Part shown: positions 21,735-40,378 of the stretch, piece by piece
How positions within the stretch are numbered: the first letter of the stretch is position 1
Layout of the letters: every line of letters begins with the position of its first letter
Position numbers and translations under genes: made by a program
IMG/VR virus record: IMGVR_UViG_3300032170_000078
Coordinates: 1 to 55,801 of that record
Strand: one strand, 5' to 3'
Origin: a virus
Lineage: Duplodnaviria > Caudoviricetes
Length of the DNA: 55,801 bases
The notes under the pieces: generated by a model
What the model was told of the DNA's origin: nothing
The model's input: only the letters and a program-made list of their open reading frames with translations
The model's database searches: none

Positions 21735-22961
21735 TTATTTTTTACCTCCTGCTAATTTCGTAGCCAGCTCTTCTATTTTAGCTTCTGCTTCCAGTAAGTC
21801 TTTGGCAGCACCTGGGGTTCTACTTCGTGGGGTTTTTGTAGCCTCCCCTTCAGCAGGTAGGACGCCAACCCCTTCCACCGCAACTGCCTTCTCGACTAGA
21901 CTGGTAGCTTTATCCATGCCCTTTTCTAAGCTTCCTCTAACCCCTTCCAATTGGCTTCCTATTCCTTCCCCAGCTTCTTTCAATAGGGTCCCAAGGCCTT
22001 CACTCCTCTCTTCGTCCTTAGCTTCCACCAGGGTGTTTATTTTGTCCTGGAGCCTATCTTTTTCGGCCTGGTGTAGTTGCCCCTGGATGCCTTCCAATAC
22101 GGTTTTATTAGCCTCTTGTACTTCTCCCATTTGGGCTATGAGTTTATCTTGTTGGTCTTTGCTGTCTTTAGTAACTTCCTCGATCGTGGTTCTAAACCCC
22201 TCAAATATCTCCTGGACCGATGGGGAGCCTCCTGGAGCTGAGGGTATTAGCTTGTCCTTGAGATCCACTATAGTCCCGAGAAGAGCAACTGCGTCCTCCA
22301 CTGGACTATGTTCTTTAACTCTTCCCCTTCCTTCTTCTCCTCCAGTTCCCTCGCGTCCACTTATAGGCTGTCTATAAATAGGCTGATACCCAAGGGTGGG
22401 TGGGTAATAAGGCGACATACCACCTCCATACATAAAAGGTGGCATAGGCCCCATGCCCATTCCAGGTTGCCCTCCCATCATTGGAATACCCTCGGGGTAG
22501 CCCCCTTCTTGAGTGGTGAAAGCACTAATCATCATTGGGATACTGGAATGCAGCTTTCTGGGTAGCTTCGCAGTTAGTAAGTAGTGGAGATTTACCGGAT
22601 TCTCTCGATAACCAGGATGGAGTTGGAATACGCCAAGTATCTGGGTGATTAGGTCCCCAGGTACCCCATGGACCTCAAGGATCTTAGATAGTCTAGGAAT
22701 TGGGTCTTCAGGTAGAATAAATTCCCCAGTGGCTATTTTTTCAGCCGCTTCTTCCCTTTGTGCTGCTCCTTCTTTTAATTCTTCCTTATGTTCTTTCTTC
22801 TTCCCTAGAACCTCTTCCTTGTCCATTTCCTGAAGGAATTGTTCTCTTGGGGGACATTCCTCGCCTCGGTGCTGGGTACTCCAATGGCCCCGGAACTTTC
22901 TCCAGGATGTGTAGGTTTTTTCTGGGTGCTCTGGGCAAATATACACTCTCATATTAGTCAC
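21735..22961 (-). CDS. C2H2-type Zn finger, Pro/Gly/Met-rich linker and coiled-coil protein
   Basis: CPEH...FRGHWSTQH; PMMGGQPGMGMGPMPP; long heptad region. Confidence 0.7.
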   Translation of the reverse strand: MTNMRVYICPEHPEKTYTSWRKFRGHWSTQHRGEECPPREQFLQEMDKEEVLGKKKEHKEELKEGAAQREEAAEKIATGEFILPEDPIPRLSKILEVHGVPGDLITQILGVFQLHPGYRENPVNLHYLLTAKLPRKLHSSIPMMISAFTTQEGGYPEGIPMMGGQPGMGMGPMPPFMYGGGMSPYYPPTLGYQPIYRQPISGREGTGGEEGRGRVKEHSPVEDAVALLGTIVDLKDKLIPSAPGGSPSVQEIFEGFRTTIEEVTKDSKDQQDKLIAQMGEVQEANKTVLEGIQGQLHQAEKDRLQDKINTLVEAKDEERSEGLGTLLKEAGEGIGSQLEGVRGSLEKGMDKATSLVEKAVAVEGVGVLPAEGEATKTPRSRTPGAAKDLLEAEAKIEELATKLAGGKK

Positions 22962-22970
22962 CTCCTTATG

Positions 22971-23159
22971 TTAACTTCGTATCCTAGATTTGTGCCTAGT
23001 TCTTATTTCAGCTATGTCGCGATTAAGCAAGTAGGTTATATACATAGTCCAACTAGGTCTTAGGATATGGCCTTCCAGTGTATGAACCTTCATAACCTCA
23101 TCAACTATCTCATTCTCTTCATCCGACTTGGGCCTGAACACTCTGGCTTCCGGAGCCAT
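22971..23159 (-). CDS. Small RHH-like protein
   Basis: Start moved to MAPEARVFRP after GAGGAGGTG; beta-helix-helix pattern. Confidence 0.5.
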   Translation of the reverse strand: MAPEARVFRPKSDEENEIVDEVMKVHTLEGHILRPSWTMYITYLLNRDIAEIRTRHKSRIRS

Positions 23160-23189
23160 AATTATCACCTCCTCTCTACTGTTATTTTT

Positions 23190-23218
23190 ATTATAACATA
23201 GTAACCTCATTTTGTCAA
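23190..23218 (-). promoter_or_regulatory. sigma70 promoter (minus strand, divergent)
   Basis: TTGACA-N17-TATAAT on the reverse strand. Confidence 0.85.
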
Positions 23219-23277: not shown

Positions 23278-23306
23278 TTGACAAAGTTAAACCTATATGA
23301 TAGAAT
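23278..23306 (+). promoter_or_regulatory. sigma70 promoter of the lipid-biosynthesis operon
   Basis: TTGACA-N17-TAGAAT with TG extension. Confidence 0.8.
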
Positions 23307-23333
23307 AAGACTATAAGGATAGGAGTATCATCT

Positions 23334-24140
23334 ATGAAGATTATCCCAGTGATGGCTACTAAGGGGGGAGTTGGGAAATCTAAGGTATGTGTGAGCCTGG
23401 GTAGAGCTTTCAAAGGTAGGGACCTCAAAGTGGGCTTCCTCGACGTAGATTGGGTGGCCCCTAATCTACATGTGGAGCTTGGGATTGACCCAGAAAGTGG
23501 ATTGGTCCTTCAATCTGGAGTAGGTGATACCATCCAACCGATAACCTCCCCTGAGGGTTTCCCATTGGTATCCTCTGCTTTTATATTTCCCCCGGATCAG
23601 GCAGTCTCTATGGATGAGGAATCCACCATAAAGGATATTGTAGAGATAACTACTCCTGGAGTTATTGCCTGGGGTGACCTAGATTACCTCATAATGGATA
23701 CTCCCCCCACTACTGCCAAATTCGTTCACGCCGCACTCCAAATTAAAGATCTTCATGGAGTGGTTCTAGTTACCCAACCGGCTACAACTTCCATTGCAGA
23801 TCTCCTTAGGACCATTTCCCTTCTAAGAGACCTTCATGTCCCCCTTTTGGGCCTAATTGGTAACCAAGTCTACATAGTTTGTCCACATGGGGAGAAGATA
23901 AACTTATATGACTTGACTGAAGAAGATATACGGTCCTTTTGTAAGTCCCAAGAGGTTCCCTATTTAGGTTCCGTTCCTCATATAGTTCCCACACTAGGCT
24001 ATCCACATTTAGATGGAGTTGTGGATAACTTAGTATCCCAGTCTCCAATCTACTTGGAAGAGAGTAAAGTTTCTACTCTCCCATATAGGATAGTATTGAC
24101 CTTGGCGAGGAGAATAAAGGATGCCCAAGACAGACGCTGA
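23334..24140 (+). CDS. Mrp/NBP35 (ApbC)-like P-loop ATPase
   Basis: KGGVGKS, LDVD..AP, WGDLDYLIMDTPP, 'VCPHG'. Confidence 0.8.
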   Translation: MKIIPVMATKGGVGKSKVCVSLGRAFKGRDLKVGFLDVDWVAPNLHVELGIDPESGLVLQSGVGDTIQPITSPEGFPLVSSAFIFPPDQAVSMDEESTIKDIVEITTPGVIAWGDLDYLIMDTPPTTAKFVHAALQIKDLHGVVLVTQPATTSIADLLRTISLLRDLHVPLLGLIGNQVYIVCPHGEKINLYDLTEEDIRSFCKSQEVPYLGSVPHIVPTLGYPHLDGVVDNLVSQSPIYLEESKVSTLPYRIVLTLARRIKDAQDRR

Positions 24141-24558
24141 AAAGATAGCTGAGATAGAAGATCTTTTTGATTTTATCTTTAAGGCCCAGGAGAAATTAGC
24201 CCCCGAGATAGTGTCTTATCAGGAAATGGTAATTGGAGAAGGCCGCAAGGGCGTTTTAATGGTCCGTGGGGACAATAAATGGACGAAGATCTTTGAGGTT
24301 AAAAATGGGAAGTTAATTCCTGCTGACACCATAGACAATGCCCGAACTGTAATAGTCTTTGAGGGGATTGATATATTCCGTAAAATGTGCCAGGCGCTTC
24401 TCGCAGGTAATCCTAGTGCCTTTTCCAGAGCTAGAGCTAGAGGTGATGTGAAGGTTGTTGGGAACTTTGCTATAAGGGATGCGACCATATTTAACAGGTT
24501 ATTGGCTAAGGTTGGGAGGATATTAAGCAGTTATGAAGTTAAGCTTGGAGGTGAATAA
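24121..24558 (+). CDS. SCP2 sterol/lipid-carrier-like protein
   Basis: 'ARTVI.F....F..M...G....A.ARGDVKVVGN' resembles the SCP2 C-terminus. Confidence 0.6.
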   Translation: MPKTDAEKIAEIEDLFDFIFKAQEKLAPEIVSYQEMVIGEGRKGVLMVRGDNKWTKIFEVKNGKLIPADTIDNARTVIVFEGIDIFRKMCQALLAGNPSAFSRARARGDVKVVGNFAIRDATIFNRLLAKVGRILSSYEVKLGGE

Positions 24559-24803
24559 TGCCAGAATTACCACCCCTGTCCCAAAGACTTAAAGGGATCT
24601 TGAGGAAGATGGCGGCTGATGAGAGTTACATAACCTCTAAGTTTGAGAGGAGGACCGGGTTCTCTTCCCCCGATCTCCTTCGTGGAACCAGTGAACTGAT
24701 AGACAAGACTCTCATTAGGATTATGGAAGAGATAGAGAAAGGTCCAGGAGGTCTAGGGGATGAGTCCCATATTACTGGTATCTGGCGCCCCTCAAGGCCC
24801 TAG
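24558..24803 (+). CDS. Hypothetical protein
   Basis: Coupled ORF. Confidence 0.55.
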   Translation: MPELPPLSQRLKGILRKMAADESYITSKFERRTGFSSPDLLRGTSELIDKTLIRIMEEIEKGPGGLGDESHITGIWRPSRP

Positions 24804-24815
24804 TGGAGGCGAGTA

Positions 24816-25136
24816 ATGCCAGATGGGTACCCTCCTTTACAGTTTCCTGGGGAACCGGATATACTAGCTGAGGTTAGGTTGAGAAATGAGCTAAGGATAT
24901 TACGTTTATTGGCCACTATGCACGGCCGAAGCCTCAAAATGAGAGAGGCTTATATGAAAAGGTGGCCTGGGGTTTATGAAGCAATGGAAATAGTAGAACC
25001 CCTCCCTAGGTGGATTGAGCAGGAGATAGCTATAGCTCCCAGGATAAAGGAAAGATTGCTCGAGGTGGAAGTCTATTTCGTGGAAAAAGGCTGGCGCTTG
25101 CCTAAGTGGAGGCGGCCGGAATGGATACTGGAATGA
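24816..25136 (+). CDS. Hypothetical protein
   Basis: GGAGG RBS; N-terminus resembles 29617-29934. Confidence 0.55.
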   Translation: MPDGYPPLQFPGEPDILAEVRLRNELRILRLLATMHGRSLKMREAYMKRWPGVYEAMEIVEPLPRWIEQEIAIAPRIKERLLEVEVYFVEKGWRLPKWRRPEWILE

Positions 25137-25783
25137 ATATATCAGAACTACCTTTTGTTATTCTCATAGCGGGAGCTACCATAGTGGGGCTCTACCTTAG
25201 TAACCTGATGTATGACTACCAAGTTCCTCAATACATTTCCCGAAAGATAGGACATGGAGTTGGGGGGATGGGCTACCTGCTCTCTGTGTTATTGTTCTCC
25301 ACCCCCTGGTGGCCCATATTTCTCTCGGGTGGATTTGCTCTTCTTCTTGGGGGAGCTAGATTTATAAGACCCTCCACATTTAGAGGGGTTGGAGGGGCTG
25401 GAAGGACCCACGCTTTGGCTGAAGTTTGGTTCCCTCTAGCAGGGACGTTATCTCTTGTTGTAGGTTGGGCCTGGTTAGGAAATCCCTGGCTGGCAGTAGT
25501 TCCGATTCTATTTATGGCTTGGGGAGATATGTTAACTGGCTTGATTAGGTCAAGGGTTTATGGGCGAGAGGTAAAAGGGAATTGGGGCAGTTTGGGAATG
25601 ATAGTAGCCTGTCTTCTTATCGGGGCACTGTTTACCCCTTACTGGATAGCGGCCGTTGGGGCAGTAGTAGCAACTGCTGTTGAGAAACATACTGGATTGT
25701 CGAGGACTTGGGTCGATGATAACTATACGATAATTGTCTCGAGCCTGATTGTTATGGGGGTGTTATGGAGATTCCTAAAGTAA
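25133..25783 (+). CDS. Phytol/dolichol (polyprenol) kinase-family membrane protein
   Basis: 'SRKIGH', 'MAWGD', 'KGNWGS', 'DDN' motifs; multiple TM segments. Confidence 0.8.
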   Translation: MNISELPFVILIAGATIVGLYLSNLMYDYQVPQYISRKIGHGVGGMGYLLSVLLFSTPWWPIFLSGGFALLLGGARFIRPSTFRGVGGAGRTHALAEVWFPLAGTLSLVVGWAWLGNPWLAVVPILFMAWGDMLTGLIRSRVYGREVKGNWGSLGMIVACLLIGALFTPYWIAAVGAVVATAVEKHTGLSRTWVDDNYTIIVSSLIVMGVLWRFLK

Positions 25784-26811
25784 TCTCAATAGGGTTCGCA
25801 GTTCCCCCTAACTCATATACCCAACGGGAGACGTTTGACTCCCTAGGGTATCCCCATCACTTTTGGCAGATCTTTAATGGGGCCGCAATAGATAAACGTC
25901 ACTTCTGGGTTTCAATGGGGACCAAACTCTCTTGGCAGGAGGCAGTAGAGGAATATAAGAAAGGAGCTATGTACCTTTCAAAAGAGGTTATAAAAGCCTG
26001 CTTAGATGAAAGGGACCTCTCTACATGTGGGAGCATCTCCTTTGCTTCTTGTACTGGATATGAATGCCCGAGTATAGTTCATTGGTTAGCGAAGGACCTA
26101 GGGTTTGCCCCTGATACCTGTTATGCTAGTATCCTGGGGATGGGCTGTGAGGGGGGTTATCCGGCTCTTAGGAGAGCTTATGACTACACCATAGCCCACC
26201 AAAGGCCTTCACTGGCAGTGAGCTGTGAGATCTGCAGTGTATGTCATTTCCCCGAGGACGGTCCACACCCTGATAAGACCAGGGACTACGAGCTCCTTAG
26301 AGCTAATGCTATCTTTGGAGATGGAGCCTCGTCAGTCCTCATTGGGTTCGATGACAATCCGAAGCATCCTTATGTTATTGACTTTGAAAGTTACTTTGAC
26401 CCTGATAACATGAAGCACCTGGGCTTCCTCTGGCAGGATGGGAGGCTACGTTGCTTGTTATCCCGCCAGATACCCAAGATTGTTCCGGGACTGGTAGAAA
26501 TAGCCCTTAAGAAGATATTCCAAAGGAATGAATTGGGGGCTGATGATATACGGTGGTGGGTAGTTCATCCCGGAGGTAAGGCAGTTCTTGATAATCTAAG
26601 AGATCAGCTTGGCTTGCCTGAAGAAAAGCTGTCTATATCAAGGGAAGCTCTTAGGCTTTACGGTAACTGCTCATCCTCTTCCATAGGTATAGTTGGTAAG
26701 CTGTTAATGTCCGAGGATATCTGTCCAAATGATTACATTGTGGTTGTTAGCCTTGGAGCTGGGTTAGCTGTTGGGGCAACATTATTAAGGTTTCCAGGAG
26801 GTGAAACATAA
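25765..26811 (+). CDS. Type III polyketide synthase (chalcone/alkylresorcinol synthase family)
   Basis: Cys (GMGCEGG), His (HPGG), Asn (GNCSS) triad; 'FGDGA'; 'LGAGL'. Confidence 0.92.
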   Translation: MEIPKVISIGFAVPPNSYTQRETFDSLGYPHHFWQIFNGAAIDKRHFWVSMGTKLSWQEAVEEYKKGAMYLSKEVIKACLDERDLSTCGSISFASCTGYECPSIVHWLAKDLGFAPDTCYASILGMGCEGGYPALRRAYDYTIAHQRPSLAVSCEICSVCHFPEDGPHPDKTRDYELLRANAIFGDGASSVLIGFDDNPKHPYVIDFESYFDPDNMKHLGFLWQDGRLRCLLSRQIPKIVPGLVEIALKKIFQRNELGADDIRWWVVHPGGKAVLDNLRDQLGLPEEKLSISREALRLYGNCSSSSIGIVGKLLMSEDICPNDYIVVVSLGAGLAVGATLLRFPGGET

Positions 26812-27077
26812 TGAACTTCTTACCTAAAGGCCCATGGGATAACCTAAGGAGGAAAGTGGAGCGAGCACTTGACCTACCTCTGGGTTCTACCGATCCCAAT
26901 AGTAGCATTATAGAGGATCTGAAAAAGAGCCATGAGGAGGAGATGAAAGCAATGGGGGATTATGCCTCAAGAGCAGGAAGAGCCAGAAGAGCTGGAAGGG
27001 AAGATATTGCCCAAATGTATGAACATCTTATGGAAGAAGAACGACATCATCTTAGTGAGATTTTGGAGAAGATGTGA
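26811..27077 (+). CDS. Ferritin-like/rubrerythrin half-domain protein
   Basis: E..A...Y and EE.HH di-iron-type motifs. Confidence 0.6.
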   Translation: MNFLPKGPWDNLRRKVERALDLPLGSTDPNSSIIEDLKKSHEEEMKAMGDYASRAGRARRAGREDIAQMYEHLMEEERHHLSEILEKM

Positions 27078-27976
27078 TGAATAAGTTAAAGATTCACCTG
27101 TTTACACTTCCTCGATGGTTCGCAGCACCATTCTTCGGCTCTAGCCTTATGATGGGAGTAATTCTAGCTGGAGGTGACTTCGCAACCGTCTACCCCTGGG
27201 TGGGCCTCATAGCGGGTCTGTTAATAATGGCTGGGGGCCACTCCTTTAACAGTTACCTTGATTACGCTTGGACGGGGTTGGATAAAGGAGAACTAGGAGA
27301 TCGTAGTGCTGAGAAGAGCTATACGGGTGGACAGGGCGTTATAGCGAGTGGACTAGTTACTACTAGAGAAGTCCTATATAACGCGATAGGCTGGTATGTT
27401 ATAAGCTTAATTCCATTATTATTCCTTGCCATCAAGGTAGGTCCTTTTATTCTCCTTATGGCTTTTCTTGGGATGTTAATAACTTTCTGGTATGTTAAAG
27501 CTAAGTTTAACTACACACATGAATTGGCTTTGGGAACTGGAGTAGGCCCTATAGCACTTCTCCTTGGGATGTTTTCAGTAAGTGGAAGTCCACCTTGGGT
27601 AACAGGTTTAGTGGCCAGTGTCCCTATAGCAATGATCCTATCCTTCGCGGGTCTTGCCCTTGATGAGTGGCCGGATGCCGAAGCCAACCTCAAGAAAGGT
27701 GTGAAAAGTATAGCCTATAAAGTTTGGGAATACAAAGTGGACCTGGGCAGTTACCTAGCCTGGTGGATTGGGGCTATGTACGTATACCAAGTCTTCCTAA
27801 TTTCCATAGGTATACTTGCTCCACTTACTGGGATTACCTTTATCCTGTTGCCTGTTTTCTTTGGACTTTCGGTTATGCTAAAGGGTGAGTTTGAGAAGTT
27901 TGCCCCACTGTATGTTATTGTCGGAGGCCTTTACCCGATGTTATTGGTTGTGGGTCAGGCCCTAGGAGGTGGATAA
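27074..27976 (+). CDS. UbiA-superfamily (MenA-like) prenyltransferase
   Basis: NSYLDYAWTGLD and DEWPDAEANLKKGVKS motifs; many TM helices. Confidence 0.85.
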   Translation: MMNKLKIHLFTLPRWFAAPFFGSSLMMGVILAGGDFATVYPWVGLIAGLLIMAGGHSFNSYLDYAWTGLDKGELGDRSAEKSYTGGQGVIASGLVTTREVLYNAIGWYVISLIPLLFLAIKVGPFILLMAFLGMLITFWYVKAKFNYTHELALGTGVGPIALLLGMFSVSGSPPWVTGLVASVPIAMILSFAGLALDEWPDAEANLKKGVKSIAYKVWEYKVDLGSYLAWWIGAMYVYQVFLISIGILAPLTGITFILLPVFFGLSVMLKGEFEKFAPLYVIVGGLYPMLLVVGQALGGG

Positions 27977-28185
27977 TGCCGAATGTGGGGGACTACATGC
28001 CAGCGAAACCTCCTTTTCCACCTCTCCCAAAAAAGTTTACTGGGAGGGCTATAAAGATAGTTACTGTTCCAGGGGGTTCTAGATGGGAATGTAGTCTTTG
28101 CGGTAGGCCCTTGAAAGGTGGGGAAACTGCAGGTAAACTTGGAAAGATTGTATTATGTTCTGAATGCGTAAGGAAAGGGAAGTAA
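27976..28185 (+). CDS. PPLPK-motif plus Zn-finger small protein
   Basis: PPFPPLPKK; CSLCG...LCSEC. Confidence 0.55.
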   Translation: MPNVGDYMPAKPPFPPLPKKFTGRAIKIVTVPGGSRWECSLCGRPLKGGETAGKLGKIVLCSECVRKGK

Positions 28186-28223
28186 GGGATGCCAGAATTA
28201 CCAGAACAGGGGGTAACGAGCTA

Positions 28224-28559
28224 ATGAATGTCCTAACGATGTTGGTTAATTCCATTGGGAAGGCAGCTGCTGATGTCACCTACCAACCTGGGGCCCTTCA
28301 ACCGTGGGTGGATGAGATAGAGTCCAAGGTGGTTGCTGATGGGAAGTTCACTAAGTCAGAGGTGCTCTACTTACCTTTTTCTCCCCCACCCGTCTTCTGG
28401 GACTATAAGTGTAAGAAATGTAGATGGTGGGAACCTCCTAATGGATGTAAAACTGTAGAGAGTGAGATATCTCCTCGAGCCTGGTGTGCCATCTGGGTTC
28501 CACCTTCTACCTACAAGCCCTTTACATGGTTTCAAGAACTAATTAAAGGAGAGTGGTGA
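28224..28559 (+). CDS. HiPIP-like [4Fe-4S] protein
   Basis: KCKKCRWW...CKTVE.EISPRAWCAIW matches HiPIP Cys/Trp spacing. Confidence 0.65.
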   Translation: MNVLTMLVNSIGKAAADVTYQPGALQPWVDEIESKVVADGKFTKSEVLYLPFSPPPVFWDYKCKKCRWWEPPNGCKTVESEISPRAWCAIWVPPSTYKPFTWFQELIKGEW

Positions 28560-28560
28560 G

Positions 28561-29598
28561 ATGAATAAACAATTAGGATTTATACCGGAGCTTATGCCTA
28601 TTAATATGGGGCCGCCATTACCAAAGTCAATGGGAATATACTGGCCGTGGTATAAACCGCCAGAAGTACCTGTGGTAGAGGCTCCACCTGTGGTAGTTTA
28701 CCCACCTGTGACTTATCCACCTGTAGCGCCACCGGTTGTTGCTTATCCTCCAGTGGCTCCACCAGTAGCTCCGCCTGTGGTAGTGTACCCACCGGTAGCC
28801 GTACCTGAAGCTCCACCTCCCGCTGCCCTCTACGTGTGCCCCGCATGTGGTGCGCAGTTTGCCGACCTAAGTGACCTGTATACCCATATAGAGGAAGTGC
28901 ATCCAGAGGCTCCGCCGGAAATTCCCATAGAGGTCTTTACTTGCCCCACATGTGGACTTCCGTTTTCCACCTTTGGGGAGCTACAAGCCCACATAGCAGA
29001 GGCTCATCCTCCAGAATTTAGTGTTACTGCCTTAGCCTATCCTCCTGGAGGTGGGACTGTAACTGTAAGTGTAGGTGGGTCCCCATATAAATTGGGTGAG
29101 AGGGTAATTCTAACTGCCATACCAAGTCCTGGCTACGAATTTAGTCACTGGGAAGGGATACCAGGCCTTCCAACTGATTTAACATACCGCTTCCCAATAG
29201 ATCGGGATATGATTGTAACAGGGGTGTTTAAGCTATTGGAAGAGCTTCCGCCTGAGGTTCCTATGCCTCCTGAAGTCCCTGAAGTACCTGAAGTACCACC
29301 AAGGGTCAGTATTTCAATAACTGCACCTGACAGCGCTAAAGCACGTGAGACGGTTATTGTAGATGTCAAGACGACGAATTTCATGGGGGAAAGTTATGAT
29401 TTGGGGACTGAGCTATCCGTCAATGCCATCCCTATTCTGCGCATTTCTGAAGCCTTCTCAGGTGGACAATCCAAAACTTATACTTCGTCCTTTTCCATGA
29501 CTGAGGTTCCTGCTTCTCTTGTTGCCGTAGTGAAGTATAAGACTGATACCCTTTGGGTTCCTATTGGTTCAGCTAGGAAGACGGTCATGCCACAATAA
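28561..29598 (+). CDS. Pro-rich protein with two C2H2 fingers, an InlB B-repeat-like domain and an Ig-like domain
   Basis: YPPV repeats; CPACG..HIEEVH and CPTCG..HIAEAH; 'LTAIPSPGYEFSHWEG'. Confidence 0.7.
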   Translation: MNKQLGFIPELMPINMGPPLPKSMGIYWPWYKPPEVPVVEAPPVVVYPPVTYPPVAPPVVAYPPVAPPVAPPVVVYPPVAVPEAPPPAALYVCPACGAQFADLSDLYTHIEEVHPEAPPEIPIEVFTCPTCGLPFSTFGELQAHIAEAHPPEFSVTALAYPPGGGTVTVSVGGSPYKLGERVILTAIPSPGYEFSHWEGIPGLPTDLTYRFPIDRDMIVTGVFKLLEELPPEVPMPPEVPEVPEVPPRVSISITAPDSAKARETVIVDVKTTNFMGESYDLGTELSVNAIPILRISEAFSGGQSKTYTSSFSMTEVPASLVAVVKYKTDTLWVPIGSARKTVMPQ

Positions 29599-29616
29599 AG
29601 TAAAAGGAGATGGGTA

Positions 29617-29934
29617 ATGGCTTTTCCACCAGATCCGGAAGAAATACGTTTGAGGTTGCTTAGTATCCTAAAGCCACCTGTTCACCCGCGGGTCTGGATG
29701 AGACGCCGAGGGGAAGAAATTGGCCTTCTAAGGAGAAGACGCAAGGCTCCGGCAATTATGGGTAGTAAAATGATCTGGCCTTACAGAATAGTTTGGAGGG
29801 AATCTCTAGGTGGAAGGGGAGTAATAAAGGTCCTTAAGGAAGAAAGGGCTGTTGGGACGATTTCGTATATTGAGAGGAGTGAAAGAGTGAACCTAGTGAG
29901 ATTATTGGAGACAATTATTAGGGGTGAGAAATGA
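29617..29934 (+). CDS. Basic hypothetical protein
   Basis: AAGGAG RBS; Arg-rich. Confidence 0.55.
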   Translation: MAFPPDPEEIRLRLLSILKPPVHPRVWMRRRGEEIGLLRRRRKAPAIMGSKMIWPYRIVWRESLGGRGVIKVLKEERAVGTISYIERSERVNLVRLLETIIRGEK

Positions 29935-30866
29935 GAGTCCTACTTACTGGGGCGTCGGGGTTTCTCGGGTCAGCCTTGACCCCCAAGTTAATAGCCGGAG
30001 GAGATACCGTCTACGGCCTATCAAGGCATCCTCCTGAGGCCGCCAAAAGCCTAATACCTCTTGTTGGAGACATTGTCAAGCCAAATCTGGGTCTAGATGA
30101 AGCTCCCAAGAACATCAAAGCCGTTTACCACCTAGCTGCTATTCATCGCCTAGGAGGAGATAAAGACGGCAATATTTGGGAGACTAATGTAACTGGAACT
30201 AAAAACGTTATCGACTTCTGTCTGAACTACGACATTAAGAGACTCTACTTCTGCTCCACTGCCTATGCCATAGGAGAAGGACGTAACGTTTATGAGAAGT
30301 CCAAGATCCTATGTGAGAAGATGGTTCGAGAGTCTAGTATTCCCCATGTTATTATCCTTAAGCCCTCAGTAGTTATGGGGACTAAGGAACATCCTTATCC
30401 TGGCCATTTCTCCCAGTTCATAGCTTTAGTAATAAAACTTCATCAACGTGCGGAGCTTATTCGTAGGAAGATAGAGGGAACTCTGAGCTTACCTGTTCTT
30501 GAGCCGGTATTCAGGGTCAGAGGAAATCCAAATGGTTACTTAAACCTTGTTGGGATAGATGATGTGGTTAAGGGAATGGCTAGGATTAGGAATGCTGGTA
30601 CCTACTGGCTTACCAATCCCCACCCTCCTACCCTTCAACAGCTTTTTAATTGGGTTGGAGAATTTATTCTCCTTGATATGAGATTCACCCAGAAGCCTTT
30701 TAGGGCCCAGCCAATAGAATTAGCTTTTCAGAAAATGGCTGCTGTCTTTGAACCTTACTTATTGGGAGACAGCTTCTCTAGCCACCTTAGGGGCTGCCTC
30801 CCAATTACCAAGGAGCTTATTCATGAGGTTGTTAAAAACCTTCTTACTATTGACAAAGTTAAATAA
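29931..30866 (+). CDS. Extended SDR (NAD_binding_4 / acyl-thioester reductase-like)
   Basis: TGASGFLG, 'GDIVKPNLGL', HLAA, NVTGT, YEKSK. Confidence 0.8.
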   Translation: MRVLLTGASGFLGSALTPKLIAGGDTVYGLSRHPPEAAKSLIPLVGDIVKPNLGLDEAPKNIKAVYHLAAIHRLGGDKDGNIWETNVTGTKNVIDFCLNYDIKRLYFCSTAYAIGEGRNVYEKSKILCEKMVRESSIPHVIILKPSVVMGTKEHPYPGHFSQFIALVIKLHQRAELIRRKIEGTLSLPVLEPVFRVRGNPNGYLNLVGIDDVVKGMARIRNAGTYWLTNPHPPTLQQLFNWVGEFILLDMRFTQKPFRAQPIELAFQKMAAVFEPYLLGDSFSSHLRGCLPITKELIHEVVKNLLTIDKVK

Positions 30867-30878
30867 AAGGTCTATAAT
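30850..30878 (+). promoter_or_regulatory. sigma70 promoter (perfect consensus)
   Basis: TTGACA-N17-TATAAT. Confidence 0.8.
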
Positions 30879-31483: not shown

Positions 31484-31499
31484 ATGGTTAGAGGTGGAA

Positions 31500-31823
31500 A
31501 TGGCTAAGGTGTTCTTCCAAGTTAGAGAAGTTCCTACTCCTTTTGGGAAGGTTAATTTACCAGCTATGGAAGTTCCAAGGCGGGGGCTCCCACATGTTGA
31601 TGAGCGTAGGAGGAGGGCAGTTAGGCACGCTGTGGCTACGGATCTTACGGGAGTACTTGGTCTTATACCTTGGGTGGGAGGTCTCGTTGGTGGGCAGTTA
31701 GGGGACTTGCATTTTGCGGAGATGAAGAAGATCTTAACCTCTCGGGAATTGGACAATTACATTAAGGCTGATAAGCAAATACCTTCCAATGGATTAGCTT
31801 TGCTTTATAGCTTTGTGAAGTGA
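31500..31823 (+). CDS. Hypothetical membrane-associated protein
   Basis: 'GVLGLIPWVGGLVGG' hydrophobic hairpin. Confidence 0.55.
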   Translation: MAKVFFQVREVPTPFGKVNLPAMEVPRRGLPHVDERRRRAVRHAVATDLTGVLGLIPWVGGLVGGQLGDLHFAEMKKILTSRELDNYIKADKQIPSNGLALLYSFVK

Positions 31824-39333: not shown

Positions 39334-40100
39334 GGGTACAGATTATTGGTGCTGGAGTAGTTGGTCAGGCTACTGGTAAGGGCTTCGCGAGGCTGGGACA
39401 TGGAGTACACTTTTTTGATCCAGATGAGAAAGTAGTAGACCAGCTAAGAACGGAGGGTTATGGAGCCGATAGCAATATTGCTATGGGGGAAGCTGACCTC
39501 TACTTTATATGTGTCCCAGAGGCAGTTATAGGGGAGGTGGTGAAGAGCTGGAGGTCTGGGGAACTCCTTGTTATCCGGAGCACCATTCCCCCAGGTACTG
39601 CTCATAAGCTGATGGACCTCTATGGAGTCCACATCTGCTCCAATCCAGAGTTCCTCAGAGAAGCAGTGGCTGAATACGAGTTCCTTAATCCGCCGGGAGT
39701 TATTATTGGAGAGTGTTGTAAAGAACATGGGGATTTGCTCGAGGAACTTTATAAACCATTTCGGAAGCCCATTTACCGAACTACTCCAGAGGTAGCTGAA
39801 CTTACCAAGCTAGTTGTTAATGGCTACCTCGCCTGCCAAATCTCCTATTGGAATCAGGTCAAACTACTGGCTAACGAGTTGGGGGTTAACTCACATGAGG
39901 TAGGAATGCTAGCCAGTTACGGAGATGATAGGATATCCGTTTATGGTTCAAGAATGCACGGAAAGGCCTATGGAGGTAAATGCTTACCGAAGGATCTTCA
40001 GCAGCTGATAAACTTAGCTCAAGGGAGAAGTATAAATGGTCAACTACTTGAGGCTATTAAAGGTATCAACGACTATTACCTAGTGAAAGGAGGTGAGTAA
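39330..40100 (+). CDS. UDP-glucose/GDP-mannose 6-dehydrogenase family protein (no C-terminal domain)
   Basis: GAGVVG, RSTIPPGT, NPEFLRE, YGGKCLPKD. Confidence 0.85.
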   Translation: MRVQIIGAGVVGQATGKGFARLGHGVHFFDPDEKVVDQLRTEGYGADSNIAMGEADLYFICVPEAVIGEVVKSWRSGELLVIRSTIPPGTAHKLMDLYGVHICSNPEFLREAVAEYEFLNPPGVIIGECCKEHGDLLEELYKPFRKPIYRTTPEVAELTKLVVNGYLACQISYWNQVKLLANELGVNSHEVGMLASYGDDRISVYGSRMHGKAYGGKCLPKDLQQLINLAQGRSINGQLLEAIKGINDYYLVKGGE

Positions 40101-40378
40101 TGGACCTTAATGTAGCTGTGTTGTATATAGCCCTACTGGCTTGTGCTGGGGGCATTGTTTCGGCTCTATTGGGGTGGCTTGATAGTGGGGAGGCCTTTGT
40201 TCCTAGGAAGTTTATGGCTTCTGTAGTAAGGGCTCTAGTTGCTGGGGTAGTCTTCGCTGTAGGCTATAGCTTCGCAAATGGTATAAGTATCCTCGACCTA
40301 TTTGTTGCGTTTCTGGGCGGGGCTGGTATAGATGTCCTGGGTAACAGGATCTCTGGAAGTATAGTTCATCGAACCTAA
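40100..40378 (+). CDS. Small three-TM membrane protein (holin-like or virion membrane protein)
   Basis: Three hydrophobic helices in 92 aa. Confidence 0.55.
   Translation: MDLNVAVLYIALLACAGGIVSALLGWLDSGEAFVPRKFMASVVRALVAGVVFAVGYSFANGISILDLFVAFLGGAGIDVLGNRISGSIVHRT

What the first reader, a model, noticed from the sequence alone, without database searches (positions are those of the whole stretch)
23278..30866. Virus-encoded lipid/meroterpenoid operon: type III PKS, UbiA prenyltransferase, polyprenol kinase, SCP2 and reductase
Seen: one sigma70 promoter drives tightly coupled genes for an Mrp-like ATPase, SCP2-like carrier, phytol/dolichol-kinase-family protein, type III PKS with intact Cys-His-Asn triad, ferritin-like protein, MenA-like UbiA enzyme, HiPIP-like protein and a NAD_binding_4-type SDR. 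These are interleaved with small Pro-rich proteins resembling others in this genome. Known: type III PKSs (SrsA/BpsA/ArsB types) make alkylresorcinols or pyrones from acyl-CoA, UbiA enzymes prenylate aromatic acceptors, VTE5/SEC59-type kinases phosphorylate isoprenoid alcohols, and SCP2 carries lipids. Inference: the element makes its own prenylated phenolic lipid or quinone-like molecule, for a virion membrane, as a glycan anchor, or to alter host redox. I do not know of a described virus with this pathway; this is the best candidate for a new system.
Basis: partly seen in the sequence, partly recalled or inferred. Interest (0 to 1): 0.9.

Follow-up and report, generated by a model that had tools for sequence, protein, structure and literature searches.

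The report
Virus-borne polyketide and prenyl-lipid gene module
An uncultured sediment virus, probably of Dehalococcoidia bacteria, carries a conserved gene set for making and handling an unusual prenylated lipid, something not found in any deposited phage genome that was searched.

Summary
Window 23278-30866 is one tightly packed + strand gene array behind a near-consensus sigma-70-like site. It encodes:
- an Mrp/NBP35-family ATPase
- an SCP2-fold protein
- a membrane protein of the CdsA/polyprenol-kinase superfamily
- a type III PKS with an intact Cys-His-Asn triad
- a UbiA prenyltransferase, nearest to MenA models
- an extended SDR
- small accessory proteins.

It is neither a misassembly nor a fresh capture. 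The same module sits in 5 further IMG/VR contigs and 80 fetched metagenome loci, inside shared viral flanks.

The interpretation needs correcting. The invariant core is ATPase-SCP2-kinase-like-UbiA-SDR:
- ATPase in 37 of 37 scorable loci
- SCP2 in 58 of 62
- UbiA in 19 of 19
- SDR in 19 of 19.

The PKS is present in only 11 of 19 and changes state at least 8 times on the tree. One cellular genome carries the kinase-like/UbiA pair alone. So UbiA need not act on the PKS product.

The ATPase has lost its CxxC Fe-S motif. A model predicts that it binds the SCP2 protein (score 0.64, best control 0.00).

Most likely product: a prenylated lipid with a polyketide head group where the PKS is present. 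Chemistry and role are unknown. The scan noted the same cassette on another genome (e1-6227627).

The parts
23278..23306 (+). Sigma-70-like promoter site, TTGACA-17-TAGAAT with an upstream TG. A divergent 12-of-12 site lies on the minus strand at 23218-23190.
   Evidence: (11 of 12 positions) and the sequence. This is a consensus match only.
23334..24140 (+). Mrp/NBP35 (NUBPL)-family P-loop ATPase. The Walker A KGGVGKS is kept; the CxxC Fe-S motif is degenerate (CPH-G).
   Evidence: PF10609 at E 2.3e-37 and the MrpORP/ApbC models. CxxC is intact in 5 of 42 rows and not in the window. Present in 37 of 37 loci with at least 1.3 kb upstream.
24121..24558 (+). SCP2-fold lipid-binding protein, predicted partner of the ATPase.
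   Evidence: AF2 pLDDT 77. The Foldseek PDB list is led by SCP2 and UbiJ-SCP2. Present in 58 of 62 loci. Complex score 0.64 against a best control of 0.00.
24558..25136 (+). Two small ORFs (81 aa at 24558-24803 and 106 aa at 24816-25136) of unknown function, interleaved in the array.
   Evidence: No Pfam or NCBIfam hit. The 81-aa ORF has a weak relative in L002.
25106..25783 (+). Integral membrane protein (here called TM225; 8 helices in the AF2 model) of the CdsA/polyprenol-kinase (CTP-transferase) superfamily. The true start is probably at 25121.
   Evidence: AF2 pLDDT 90. The hhalign chain gives 98.7% then 95.8%. Atlas lead at 0.97, 'phosphatidate cytidylyltransferase/dolichol kinase'. Conserved SRKxGH, GDxxTG, KGxxGS, E and DDN.
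25765..26811 (+). Type III polyketide synthase with C128/H268/N301.
   Evidence: Clade of module PKSs.
26811..27077 (+). 88-aa rubrerythrin/half-ferritin-like protein, seen only directly after the PKS in close relatives.
   Evidence: Weak hits. The L002 orthologue passes the Pfam Rubrerythrin cut-off. Found in L099, L101 and L106, all of which carry the PKS.
27074..27976 (+). UbiA-superfamily prenyltransferase, nearest to MenA models. 8 hydrophobic segments and both Asp-rich motifs.
27976..28185 (+). 69-aa zinc-ribbon-like small protein.
   Evidence: Weak Pfam hits only. Relative in L002.
28164..28559 (+). 4-Cys HiPIP-like small protein, an accessory gene.
   Evidence: NCBIfam Iro at E 0.0017, below cut-off. 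Four invariant Cys in 6 sequences. Present in loci with and without the PKS.
28561..29934 (+). 345-aa Pro-rich protein with two C2H2 fingers and an InlB B-repeat-like domain (28561-29598), followed by a 105-aa ORF (29617-29934). Neither looks like an enzyme.
29931..30866 (+). Extended SDR (NAD_binding_4/epimerase type) with an intact Ser/Thr-Tyr-Lys site.
   Evidence: Best PDB match is the MxaA thioester-reductase domain at E 5.1e-17, over the N-terminal ~110 residues only. Present in 19 of 19 loci.
30850..30878 (+). Next sigma-70-like site (12 of 12 positions), marking the end of the array.

Best explanation
The array is the window's copy of a hallmark module of an uncultured virus lineage from marine and subsurface sediment. 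The host is probably Dehalococcoidia bacteria. The module makes and handles a non-standard isoprenoid-bearing lipid.

Shown:
- The family or fold of each protein.
- A five-gene core: Mrp-type ATPase, SCP2, CdsA/polyprenol-kinase-like membrane protein, UbiA, extended SDR.
- Fixed order and tight coupling of those genes.
- The type III PKS as a frequent but dispensable insert between UbiA and SDR.

Inferred mechanism:
1. The kinase-like protein phosphorylates, or CTP-activates, an isoprenoid or lipid alcohol.
2. The MenA-like UbiA joins a prenyl chain to an acceptor.
3. In PKS-bearing members such as this window, the acceptor is a polyketide phenol or pyrone built from an acyl starter. Some relatives carry an ACP next to the PKS.
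4. In this subclade the small di-iron-like and 4-Cys proteins may oxidise the product towards a quinone.
5. The SDR reduces a thioester or carbonyl of the lipid.
6. The ATPase-SCP2 pair extracts or shuttles the hydrophobic product, much as UbiJ does in ubiquinone synthesis.

The role of the product is not known. It could be a virion or host-membrane component, a glycan anchor or a redox lipid.
For: Families and folds:
-.

Conservation:
- PKS-profile and TM225-profile scans of IMG/VR found 5 further contigs. All carry ATPase-SCP2-TM225-UbiA-SDR in one direction.
- 80 metagenome loci were fetched out of at least 303 relatives.
- Among them: ATPase 37 of 37, SCP2 58 of 62, UbiA 30 of 32 (19 of 19 in long loci), SDR 19 of 19, PKS 11 of 19, ACP 3 of 19.
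- Flanks share other genes of this window, namely homologues of 21735-22961, 22971-23210 and 31494-31823, even in the PKS-less L115.

PKS and its accessories:
- Module PKSs are one clade, SH-aLRT 96: 20 module rows plus 11 of unknown context, and no cellular row.
- An ACP lies directly upstream of the PKS in L003, L004 and L106.

SCP2 and ATPase:
- SCP2 top fold matches include UbiJ.
- ATPase-SCP2 complex: median ipSAE 0.64, best control 0.00. That mark was reached by 58 of 80 solved complexes and 2 of 110 mismatched pairs. The runs share at least 90% of contacts, and partner pLDDT is at least 74.

Host:
- Promoter-like sites matching the bacterial consensus in 11 or 12 of 12 positions.
- 7 of 8 genome-collection hits lie in Dehalococcoidia-labelled MAGs.
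- The nearest cellular TM225/UbiA pair, 53% and 57% identical, is in a genome of the same class.

Precedent:
- AgqA alkylresorcinols are 'subsequently prenylated and hydroxylated' (passage in PMC10896814).
Against: - The PKS is absent from 8 of 19 complete loci and from L094. The TM225/UbiA pair stands alone in a cellular genome. The core therefore works without a polyketide acceptor.
- No product, substrate or activity is shown.
- UbiA scores only just above the Pfam cut-off and far below every NCBIfam MenA cut-off (34 against 277 bits). It has no PDB sequence match, even with a profile.
- Polyprenol kinases make monophosphates, whereas UbiA donors are diphosphates (established knowledge).
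- The SDR matches sugar epimerases almost as well as thioester reductases.
- No capsid, portal or terminase family appeared in the ORFs I scanned. 'Virus' rests on the IMG/VR class, the CheckV estimate of 86% completeness and phage-type replication genes.
Confidence: 0.5

Rival explanations
1. Lipid-carrier supply for the virus's glycosylation island.
- The kinase-like protein recycles polyprenol to polyprenyl phosphate.
- UbiA acts like the decaprenyl-phosphate phosphoribosyltransferase branch of the superfamily and loads a sugar phosphate onto the carrier.
- The extended SDR epimerises or reduces the lipid-linked sugar.
- The PKS is an unrelated passenger.
For: - The PKS is dispensable.
- The SDR matches UDP-sugar epimerases and dehydratases at E 1e-14 to 1e-12, close to its best hit. 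PHROGs names it a nucleotide-sugar epimerase.
- The same genome holds several GT4 glycosyltransferases and a DegT/Gfo amino-sugar set.
- The cellular pair lies beside cell-division genes.
Against: - All NCBIfam hits of UbiA are MenA, other prenyltransferase or ChlG models.
- Its first motif has the spacing that I recall for MenA (the comparison is from memory).
- TM225 and UbiA are the only multi-pass membrane proteins of 150 aa or more in the window. No GT-C enzyme, flippase or initiating phosphoglycosyl transferase is seen.
- This reading gives no role to SCP2 or the ACP.
Confidence: 0.15
2. Ether-type or CDP-activated membrane lipid synthesis, on the logic of archaeal DGGGP synthase (UbiA family) followed by CDP-archaeol synthase (CdsA-like).
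- The SDR reduces an acyl-ACP or acyl-CoA, extended by the PKS where present, to a lipid alcohol.
- UbiA makes an ether bond.
- TM225 activates the product with CTP for head-group addition.
For: - TM225 belongs to the CdsA superfamily.
- An ACP lies directly upstream of the SDR in the PKS-less loci L115 and L172.
- The best PDB hit of the SDR is a thioester-reductase domain.
- A UbiA plus CdsA-like pair exists alone in a cell.
Against: - No GGGP-synthase or glycerol-phosphate dehydrogenase gene is in the module.
- TM225 aligns far better with the ~200-aa family, which lacks CdsA's C-terminal part, than with CdsA itself.
- No Pfam CarS-family hit.
- No NCBIfam hit to DGGGP synthase models.
Confidence: 0.15
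3. The element is not a virus but another mobile element or a cellular island binned as viral. The module would then be an ordinary cellular secondary-metabolite cluster.
For: - No capsid, portal, terminase or tail family appeared in the scanned ORFs.
- Relatives sit in Dehalococcoidia MAG bins.
- The record is linear with no end repeats.
Against: - CheckV estimates 86% completeness of a virus record.
- The window holds phage-type Sak4, exonuclease, helicase and phrog_421 genes.
- MAG hits are short contigs of 1.5-13 kb whose flanks match this window's non-cellular genes.
- No housekeeping gene appeared beside any full module in the loci I read.
- Only the two-gene pair is seen in a cellular context.
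Confidence: 0.1
4. A recently captured host operon or an assembly chimera.
For: None found.
Against: - The same order and junctions occur in independent assemblies at 30-86% protein identity.
- The nearest cellular PKSs are at most 33% identical.
- G+C is flat at 0.44-0.49 across the window.
Confidence: 0.02

Closest known systems
Agq cluster of Actinoplanes missouriensis: type III PKS AgqA with a membrane-bound UbiA-like prenyltransferase. Related are the Srs and Ftp alkylresorcinol/alkylquinone clusters.
   Same: - A type III PKS and a UbiA-family enzyme encoded side by side.
- Alkylresorcinols that are then prenylated and hydroxylated (passage in PMC10896814; Awakawa 2011 seen only as a reference entry in PMC4044012).
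- An ACP beside the PKS in some relatives recalls the Myxococcus Ftp system (my recollection).
   Different: - No FAD monooxygenase or methyltransferase is in the module.
- It adds an ATPase, SCP2, a kinase-like protein and an SDR.
- The PKS is optional.
- It sits on a virus-classified element.
- PKS identity to any solved bacterial enzyme is low; the best match is Pks11 at E 5.6e-44 with a profile.
Phytol kinase (VTE5) with homogentisate or DHNA phytyltransferase in tocopherol and phylloquinone synthesis (recalled knowledge)
   Same: - A CTP-dependent isoprenoid-alcohol kinase family member is paired with a MenA/HPT-type UbiA enzyme.
- The kinase-like/UbiA adjacency is kept in every long locus and in one cell.
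   Different: - Membership of the kinase branch is inferred only through a bridging family.
- No second kinase to make the diphosphate is seen.
- The acceptor is unknown.
UbiJ (SCP2 domain) of the E. coli ubiquinone-synthesis complex
   Same: - An SCP2 fold encoded with a UbiA-type pathway.
- UbiJ-SCP2 is among the best fold matches, E 4.5e-4.
   Different: - No sequence similarity detectable by Pfam.
- Here the SCP2 protein is predicted to bind a SIMIBI-class ATPase. I know of no such partner for UbiJ.
Mrp/NBP35/ApbC iron-sulfur cluster carrier ATPases
   Same: - PF10609 at E 2.3e-37 and the deviant Walker A KGGxGK[ST].
- A minority of module copies keep CxxC (5 of 42 rows).
   Different: - The window's copy and 37 of 42 rows lack the second Cys.
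- A bridging Fe-S cluster is therefore unlikely, and the protein has probably been re-used.
Virus-encoded lipid synthesis, such as the coccolithovirus sphingolipid pathway (recalled)
   Same: A virus carries several consecutive lipid-synthesis enzymes as a stable part of its genome.
   Different: - Different enzymes, a different host domain and different chemistry.
- No polyketide or UbiA enzymes are involved there.

Membership tests
Type III polyketide synthase (chalcone synthase superfamily) | N- and C-terminal CHS-like thiolase-fold domains above the family cut-offs | tested here: met
   PF00195 at 41.9 bits, PF02797 at 60.3 bits and PF08541 at 53.2 bits, all above cut-offs of about 27. 134 PDB chains match at E <= 1e-5, led by Pks11, THNS and CylI.
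Type III polyketide synthase (chalcone synthase superfamily) | Catalytic Cys-His-Asn triad | tested here: met
   C128, H268 and N301 are invariant in 28 sequences and in 10 sequences.
Type III polyketide synthase (chalcone synthase superfamily) | Product class (alkylresorcinol, pyrone, THN or DPA-CoA) | not testable with these tools
   The best NCBIfam model is DpgA at 141 bits against a cut-off of 425. The best PDB match is the pyrone synthase Pks11. No assignment is possible.
UbiA prenyltransferase superfamily | Pfam PF01040 above the gathering score | tested here: met
   36.0 bits against 34.2 in the window. 6 of 8 family members hit it, best E 2.2e-13.
UbiA prenyltransferase superfamily | Two Asp-rich motifs and about 8-9 membrane helices | tested here: met
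   N59xxxD63...D70 and D197xxxD201 are invariant. 8 hydrophobic segments.
MenA (DHNA polyprenyltransferase) equivalog | Score above the NCBIfam MenA cut-off | tested here: not met
   The best MenA model scores 34.1 bits against a cut-off of 277. Sources auto-name some relatives MenA, which is not a test.
SCP2 sterol/lipid carrier fold | SCP2 alpha/beta fold | tested here: met
   The first 11 Foldseek PDB rows, and most rows down to E 0.02, are SCP2-fold proteins or domains. Probability about 1.0, TM 0.38-0.58. Model pLDDT is 77 from only 8 sequences.
SCP2 sterol/lipid carrier fold | Sequence match to Pfam PF02036 | tested here: not met
   No Pfam hit at E <= 0.1. The Atlas gives a lead only, 0.93.
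CdsA / polyprenol (dolichol, phytol) kinase CTP-transferase superfamily | Profile similarity to PF01148-type proteins | tested here: inconclusive
CdsA / polyprenol (dolichol, phytol) kinase CTP-transferase superfamily | Kinase versus cytidylyltransferase activity | not testable with these tools
   The motifs SRKxGH, GDxxTG, KGxxGS and DDN resemble what I recall of the dolichol/phytol kinase branch. That comparison is from memory.
Mrp/NBP35 Fe-S cluster carrier | P-loop NTPase of PF10609 with the deviant Walker A | tested here: met
   E 2.3e-37. KGGxGK[ST] is present in every row that covers the site.
Mrp/NBP35 Fe-S cluster carrier | CxxC cluster-bridging motif | tested here: not met
   The window has CPH-G. 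CxxC is intact in only 5 of 42 rows.
Extended short-chain dehydrogenase/reductase | TGxxGxxG nucleotide site and the Ser/Thr-Tyr-Lys catalytic set | tested here: met
   G7, G10, G13, Y121 and K125 are invariant, and S109 and T110 nearly invariant, in 16 sequences.
Thioester (acyl-CoA/ACP) reductase, NAD_binding_4 type | Best and specific similarity to reductase (R) domains | tested here: inconclusive
   MxaA 4u7w is the best hit (E 5.1e-17) but over about 110 residues only. Sugar epimerases follow within 2-3 orders of magnitude. TIGR01746 scores 55 bits against a cut-off of 213.
HiPIP (high-potential iron-sulfur protein) | Four-Cys cluster ligands and a family score | tested here: inconclusive
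   Four invariant Cys. The NCBIfam Iro model scores 18.6 bits against a cut-off of 100.
Agq/Srs-type alkylresorcinol tailoring cluster | PKS together with an FAD monooxygenase and a methyltransferase | tested here: not met
   No such domains appear in 23334-30866 or among the inserted ORFs of 80 loci, as far as those were clustered. The insert clusters were not scanned against Pfam.

The most novel reading that the evidence does not exclude
The five-gene core is a virus-specific 'lipid factory plus shuttle'.
- A membrane pair (kinase-like enzyme and UbiA) and an SDR build a lipid that the host does not make.
- In most members the head group comes from the virus's own type III PKS.
- A re-purposed Mrp-type ATPase that has lost its Fe-S site uses ATP-driven dimerisation to load or unload an SCP2 partner.
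- That partner carries the lipid to the site of virion assembly or into the host envelope.

This would be a new class of ATP-driven soluble lipid carrier. It would also be a defining trait of a new lineage of tailless viruses of wall-less Dehalococcoidia.
Probability: 0.2. Interest if true: 0.9.

Novelty: new variant of a known kind. Interest (0 to 1): 0.75.

Why it matters
- **No parallel found in the phage collections searched.** The PKS, UbiA, SCP2-like and kinase-like proteins match no PHROGs family with any real support; the only hit is a marginal one for the kinase-like protein (E 0.0098). Among 50,697 deposited phage records there are only two weak partial PKS matches. Seven full-text searches found no description (passages read).
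- **It is abundant.** More than 700-800 relatives of the UbiA and kinase-like proteins occur in sediment and subsurface metagenomes.
- **It points to host biology.** The module is the best-conserved block of a virus lineage that lacks recognisable capsid genes. It therefore probably marks an essential step of infection in Dehalococcoidia, an important but hard-to-grow subsurface group.
- **Each part is testable.** The product can be sought by co-expression and LC-MS. The predicted ATPase-SCP2 complex can be tested by pull-down. The natural presence or absence of the PKS gives a ready-made comparison.

Tried and rejected
The genomic context of the PKS homologues P0002-P0091 could not be looked up directly. 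I used the search for related loci and the genome search instead.
- **PKS single-protein scan of IMG/VR** found nothing. The alignment scan did.
- **Sequence searches of the PDB** with UbiA, alone and as a profile, and with the TM225 profile gave nothing useful.
- **Foldseek PDB with the TM225 model** gave no match at E <= 0.001.
- **hhalign of TM225 against CdsA.** A first, dirty CdsA alignment gave nothing. A cleaned one gave 5%.
- **The bridging cellular family** has no Pfam hit, and sources call it hypothetical. The name 'polyprenol kinase' therefore rests on motifs recalled from memory.
- **Cellular PKS genes L019-L029** have no UbiA, TM225 or SDR neighbour within 1.5 kb.
- **A Thiodictyon plasmid** holds a 34%-identical TM225-like gene at the end of a formate dehydrogenase operon. 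This gave no functional lead.
- **Sequencing runs.** No RNA holder is listed. One run holds 0.99 of the words and may be the source.
- **Transfer direction** between virus and the cell G155 was not tested by an AU test.
- **Supplementary files** of papers were not requested.

Full report
**What the window is**

The window is a whole IMG/VR virus record of 55,801 bases. It is linear, and CheckV estimates it as 86% complete. G+C is even at 0.44-0.49, and there is no tRNA.

Its first 21 kb encode phage-type replication and recombination genes:
- phrog_421
- a PD-(D/E)XK exonuclease
- a Sak4-like annealing protein
- a helicase, phrog_2488 at E 2.4e-89.

Downstream of the finding lie a subtilase and several GT4 glycosyltransferases with an amino-sugar set. 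No capsid, portal or terminase family appeared in the ORFs I scanned. The viral nature therefore rests on the database class and the replication genes.

**The array**

From 23334 to 30866 there are 13 co-directional ORFs separated by -31 to +18 nt. 9 of the 13 listed starts have a Shine-Dalgarno-like motif upstream.

The array is bracketed by near-perfect sigma-70-like sites:
- TTGACA-17-TAGAAT with TG at 23278-23306
- a 12-of-12 site at 30850-30878
- a divergent 12-of-12 site on the minus strand at 23218-23190.

These are consensus matches, not proof of function. They do argue for a bacterial host.

**The proteins**

*ATPase (23334-24140).* It matches PF10609 at E 2.3e-37, and its best NCBIfam models are MrpORP and ApbC. 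Across 42 aligned rows the Walker A KGGxGK[ST] is kept. The CxxC that bridges the Fe-S cluster in this family is intact in only 5 rows. The window reads CPH-G.

*SCP2-like protein (24121-24558).* It has no Pfam hit. Its AF2 model (pLDDT 77, 8 sequences) retrieves mostly SCP2-fold chains: all of the first 11 rows and most rows down to E 0.02. They are led by human SCP2 and the UbiJ SCP2 domain (E 2.9e-4 to 9.4e-4). The Atlas gave the same lead.

*TM225 (25106-25783).* It models confidently as an 8-helix membrane protein (pLDDT 90). It has no direct family or PDB match.
- A profile search of 401 Dehalococcoidia-class genomes found matches in 56, of which 3 were strong.
- The weak ones are a ~200-aa chromosomal family that Pfam does not cover.
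- hhalign links TM225 to that family at 98.7% (E 3e-16, 180 columns). It links that family to CdsA (PF01148 members fetched) at 95.8% (E 7.5e-9).
- The direct TM225-CdsA comparison failed.
- The Atlas names the nearest clusters phosphatidate cytidylyltransferase or dolichol kinase (0.97-0.94).

I accept superfamily membership. The kinase reading rests on motifs that I recall.

*PKS (25765-26811).* This is a bona fide type III PKS.

*UbiA (27074-27976).* It passes PF01040 narrowly, and 6 of 8 relatives hit that family. It keeps both Asp-rich motifs and has 8 hydrophobic segments. Its NCBIfam hits are mostly MenA models, far below their cut-offs.

*SDR (29931-30866).* This is an extended SDR with an intact active site. 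Its best PDB match is the MxaA thioester-reductase domain, with sugar epimerases close behind. All matches cover only the Rossmann half.

*Accessory proteins.* The 88-aa and 131-aa proteins are weakly rubrerythrin-like and HiPIP-like. The other ORFs are small, or Pro-rich with zinc fingers.

**Conservation**

The PKS has 91 relatives in the protein collection. There is a dense series at 42-86% identity, then a drop to 36% or less.

Alignment scans of IMG/VR found five further contigs of 41-85 kb. All five carry ATPase, SCP2-like, TM225, UbiA and SDR in one direction. Four also carry the PKS; L094 does not.

The genome collection gave 8 short contigs. Seven lie in Dehalococcoidia-labelled MAGs and one in an Aenigmatarchaeota-labelled MAG. 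The latter MAG also holds helicase pieces 99% and 44% identical to the window's. I read that as virus contigs in a bin.

The metagenome scan found at least 303 relatives, and 80 loci were kept. L099 is the same contig as L002, and L168 and L169 are near-duplicates.

HMMs of each gene over these loci gave the following:

| Gene | Present in | Loci counted |
|---|---|---|
| ATPase | 37 of 37 | at least 1.3 kb upstream |
| SCP2 | 58 of 62 | at least 0.4 kb upstream |
| UbiA | 30 of 32 | at least 1.5 kb downstream |
| UbiA | 19 of 19 | at least 3.5 kb downstream |
| SDR | 19 of 19 | at least 3.5 kb downstream |
| PKS | 11 of 19 | at least 3.5 kb downstream |
| ACP | 3 of 19 | at least 3.5 kb downstream |

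The commonest order is ATPase-SCP2-TM225-UbiA-PKS-SDR (7 loci). Next is the same order without the PKS (4 loci).

Flanks of long loci share other genes with the window, including the PKS-less L115. The module is thus a fixed part of a virus lineage, not a chimera or a fresh capture.

**The PKS is optional**

46 loci could be scored for the PKS: 32 have it and 14 do not. This sample favours presence, because a PKS can be called from less sequence. On the TM225 tree the state changes at least 8 times.

All 20 module PKSs, with 11 of unknown context, form one clade (SH-aLRT 96). The clade excludes the 10 cellular PKSs from the class sample. The nearest cellular row is its sister at 82. One gain followed by repeated loss is the simplest reading, though I did not test it.

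Other genes sit in the same slot in some relatives:
- an ACP directly before the PKS (L003, L004, L106)
- an ACP directly before the SDR in PKS-less loci (L115, L172)
- a B12-binding radical SAM enzyme between TM225 and UbiA (L010, L012).

The rubrerythrin-like gene was seen only directly after a PKS.

**A cellular pair**

Genome G155 carries TM225 (53% identical) and UbiA (57% to the window, up to 63% to other module copies). The pair lies between trmD and a two-component system, near ftsZ, ftsA, mraW, mraZ and priA. No PKS, SDR, ATPase or SCP2 is beside it.

On the TM225 tree this copy groups with two module copies (SH-aLRT 100). The G163 copy is basal on a long branch.

So the kinase-like/UbiA pair is a functional unit on its own. 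It also ties the lineage to Dehalococcoidia.

**ATPase and SCP2**

The two genes overlap or abut in nearly every locus. A complex prediction with my own alignments (36 rows each) gave:
- scores of 0.64, 0.70 and 0.56, median 0.64, against a best control of 0.00
- at least 90% of contacts shared between runs
- partner pLDDT of at least 74.

That mark is reached by 58 of 80 solved complexes and 2 of 110 mismatched pairs. This supports binding but does not show it.

**Reading**

The safest statement is that this is a conserved viral module for an isoprenoid-bearing lipid, with its own carrier.

In this window the PKS, the di-iron-like protein and the 4-Cys protein make a prenylated phenolic or quinone-like lipid the most likely product. 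That fits the AgqA precedent and the polyketide quinones of actinomycetes (passages in PMC10896814).

The optional PKS and the stand-alone cellular pair keep two other chemistries open:
- a polyprenyl-phosphate-linked sugar carrier for the neighbouring glycosylation genes
- an ether or CDP-activated lipid.

TM225 and UbiA are the only multi-pass membrane proteins of 150 aa or more in the window. That weakens, but does not exclude, the carrier reading.

**Novelty**

- PHROGs has no supported family for the PKS, UbiA, SCP2-like or TM225 proteins; the only hit is a marginal one for TM225 at E 0.0098.
- Among 50,697 phage records, TM225 and UbiA have no match. The PKS has two partial 29% matches.
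- Full-text searches combined type III PKS, UbiA, virus, Dehalococcoidia, AMG and viral contigs. They found no description. The two candidate passages concern bacterial BGC counts only.
- The scan's own notes list the same cassette on another genome (e1-6227627).

I class it as a new variant of known kinds: virus-encoded lipid synthesis, and PKS-UbiA meroterpenoid clusters. The ATPase-SCP2 pairing is possibly new.

Noticed in passing
L013-L017 (G005) and L005: A MAG labelled Aenigmatarchaeota holds several fragments of this virus lineage: helicase pieces 99% and 44% identical to the window's, and a PKS contig 84% identical. These are probably virus contigs swept into the bin, not evidence for an archaeal host.
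   Followed up: partly
L010:746-2089 and L012:1282-2625: A 447-aa B12-binding radical SAM enzyme is inserted between the kinase-like gene and UbiA in two relatives. It could methylate or cross-link the lipid.
   Followed up: partly
L064-L089 (for example L071:1486-2112, L068:1498-2124): A ~200-aa membrane protein family is present in many Dehalococcoidia-class chromosomes; the TM225 profile matched 56 of 401 genomes, 3 of them strongly. The family has no Pfam hit and only 'hypothetical' names. By hhalign it is related to CdsA at 95.8%. It looks like an uncovered polyprenol-kinase-like family.
   Followed up: partly
L006, L008, L093, L107, L133, L136, L157, L176 (UbiA genes): Module UbiA genes come in two deeply split types. 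Some are only 28-37% identical to the window's or to the G155 copy, while most are about 60%. This suggests replacement or fast divergence of the prenyltransferase within the module.
   Followed up: no
L094:3868-5217 and L094:6232-6747: The PKS-less IMG/VR relative has a 449-aa ORF between TM225 and UbiA, and a 171-aa ORF where the PKS would be. Neither was identified.
   Followed up: no
L170:2906-3754, L109:2644-3390, L093:8666-9463: ORFs of 250-280 aa with Cys-rich N-termini interrupt the module in several loci. They look like selfish endonuclease-type inserts, but this was not checked against any family library.
   Followed up: no
window 40100-40378: A 92-aa ORF with three hydrophobic segments sits inside the glycosylation island, between a UDP-glucose/GDP-mannose dehydrogenase-like gene and a dehydratase/epimerase. 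It has no Pfam hit.
   Followed up: no
L177 (NZ_CP020372.1, 448241-448924): A TM225-like hypothetical protein (34% identical over 58% of the query) ends a formate dehydrogenase operon on a Thiodictyon megaplasmid.
   Followed up: partly
window 21735-22961 (-) and 31494-31823 (+): The 408-aa protein encoded divergently upstream and the 109-aa protein downstream of the module are conserved next to it in distant relatives (L115, L132, L176, L007). They may belong functionally with it.
   Followed up: no
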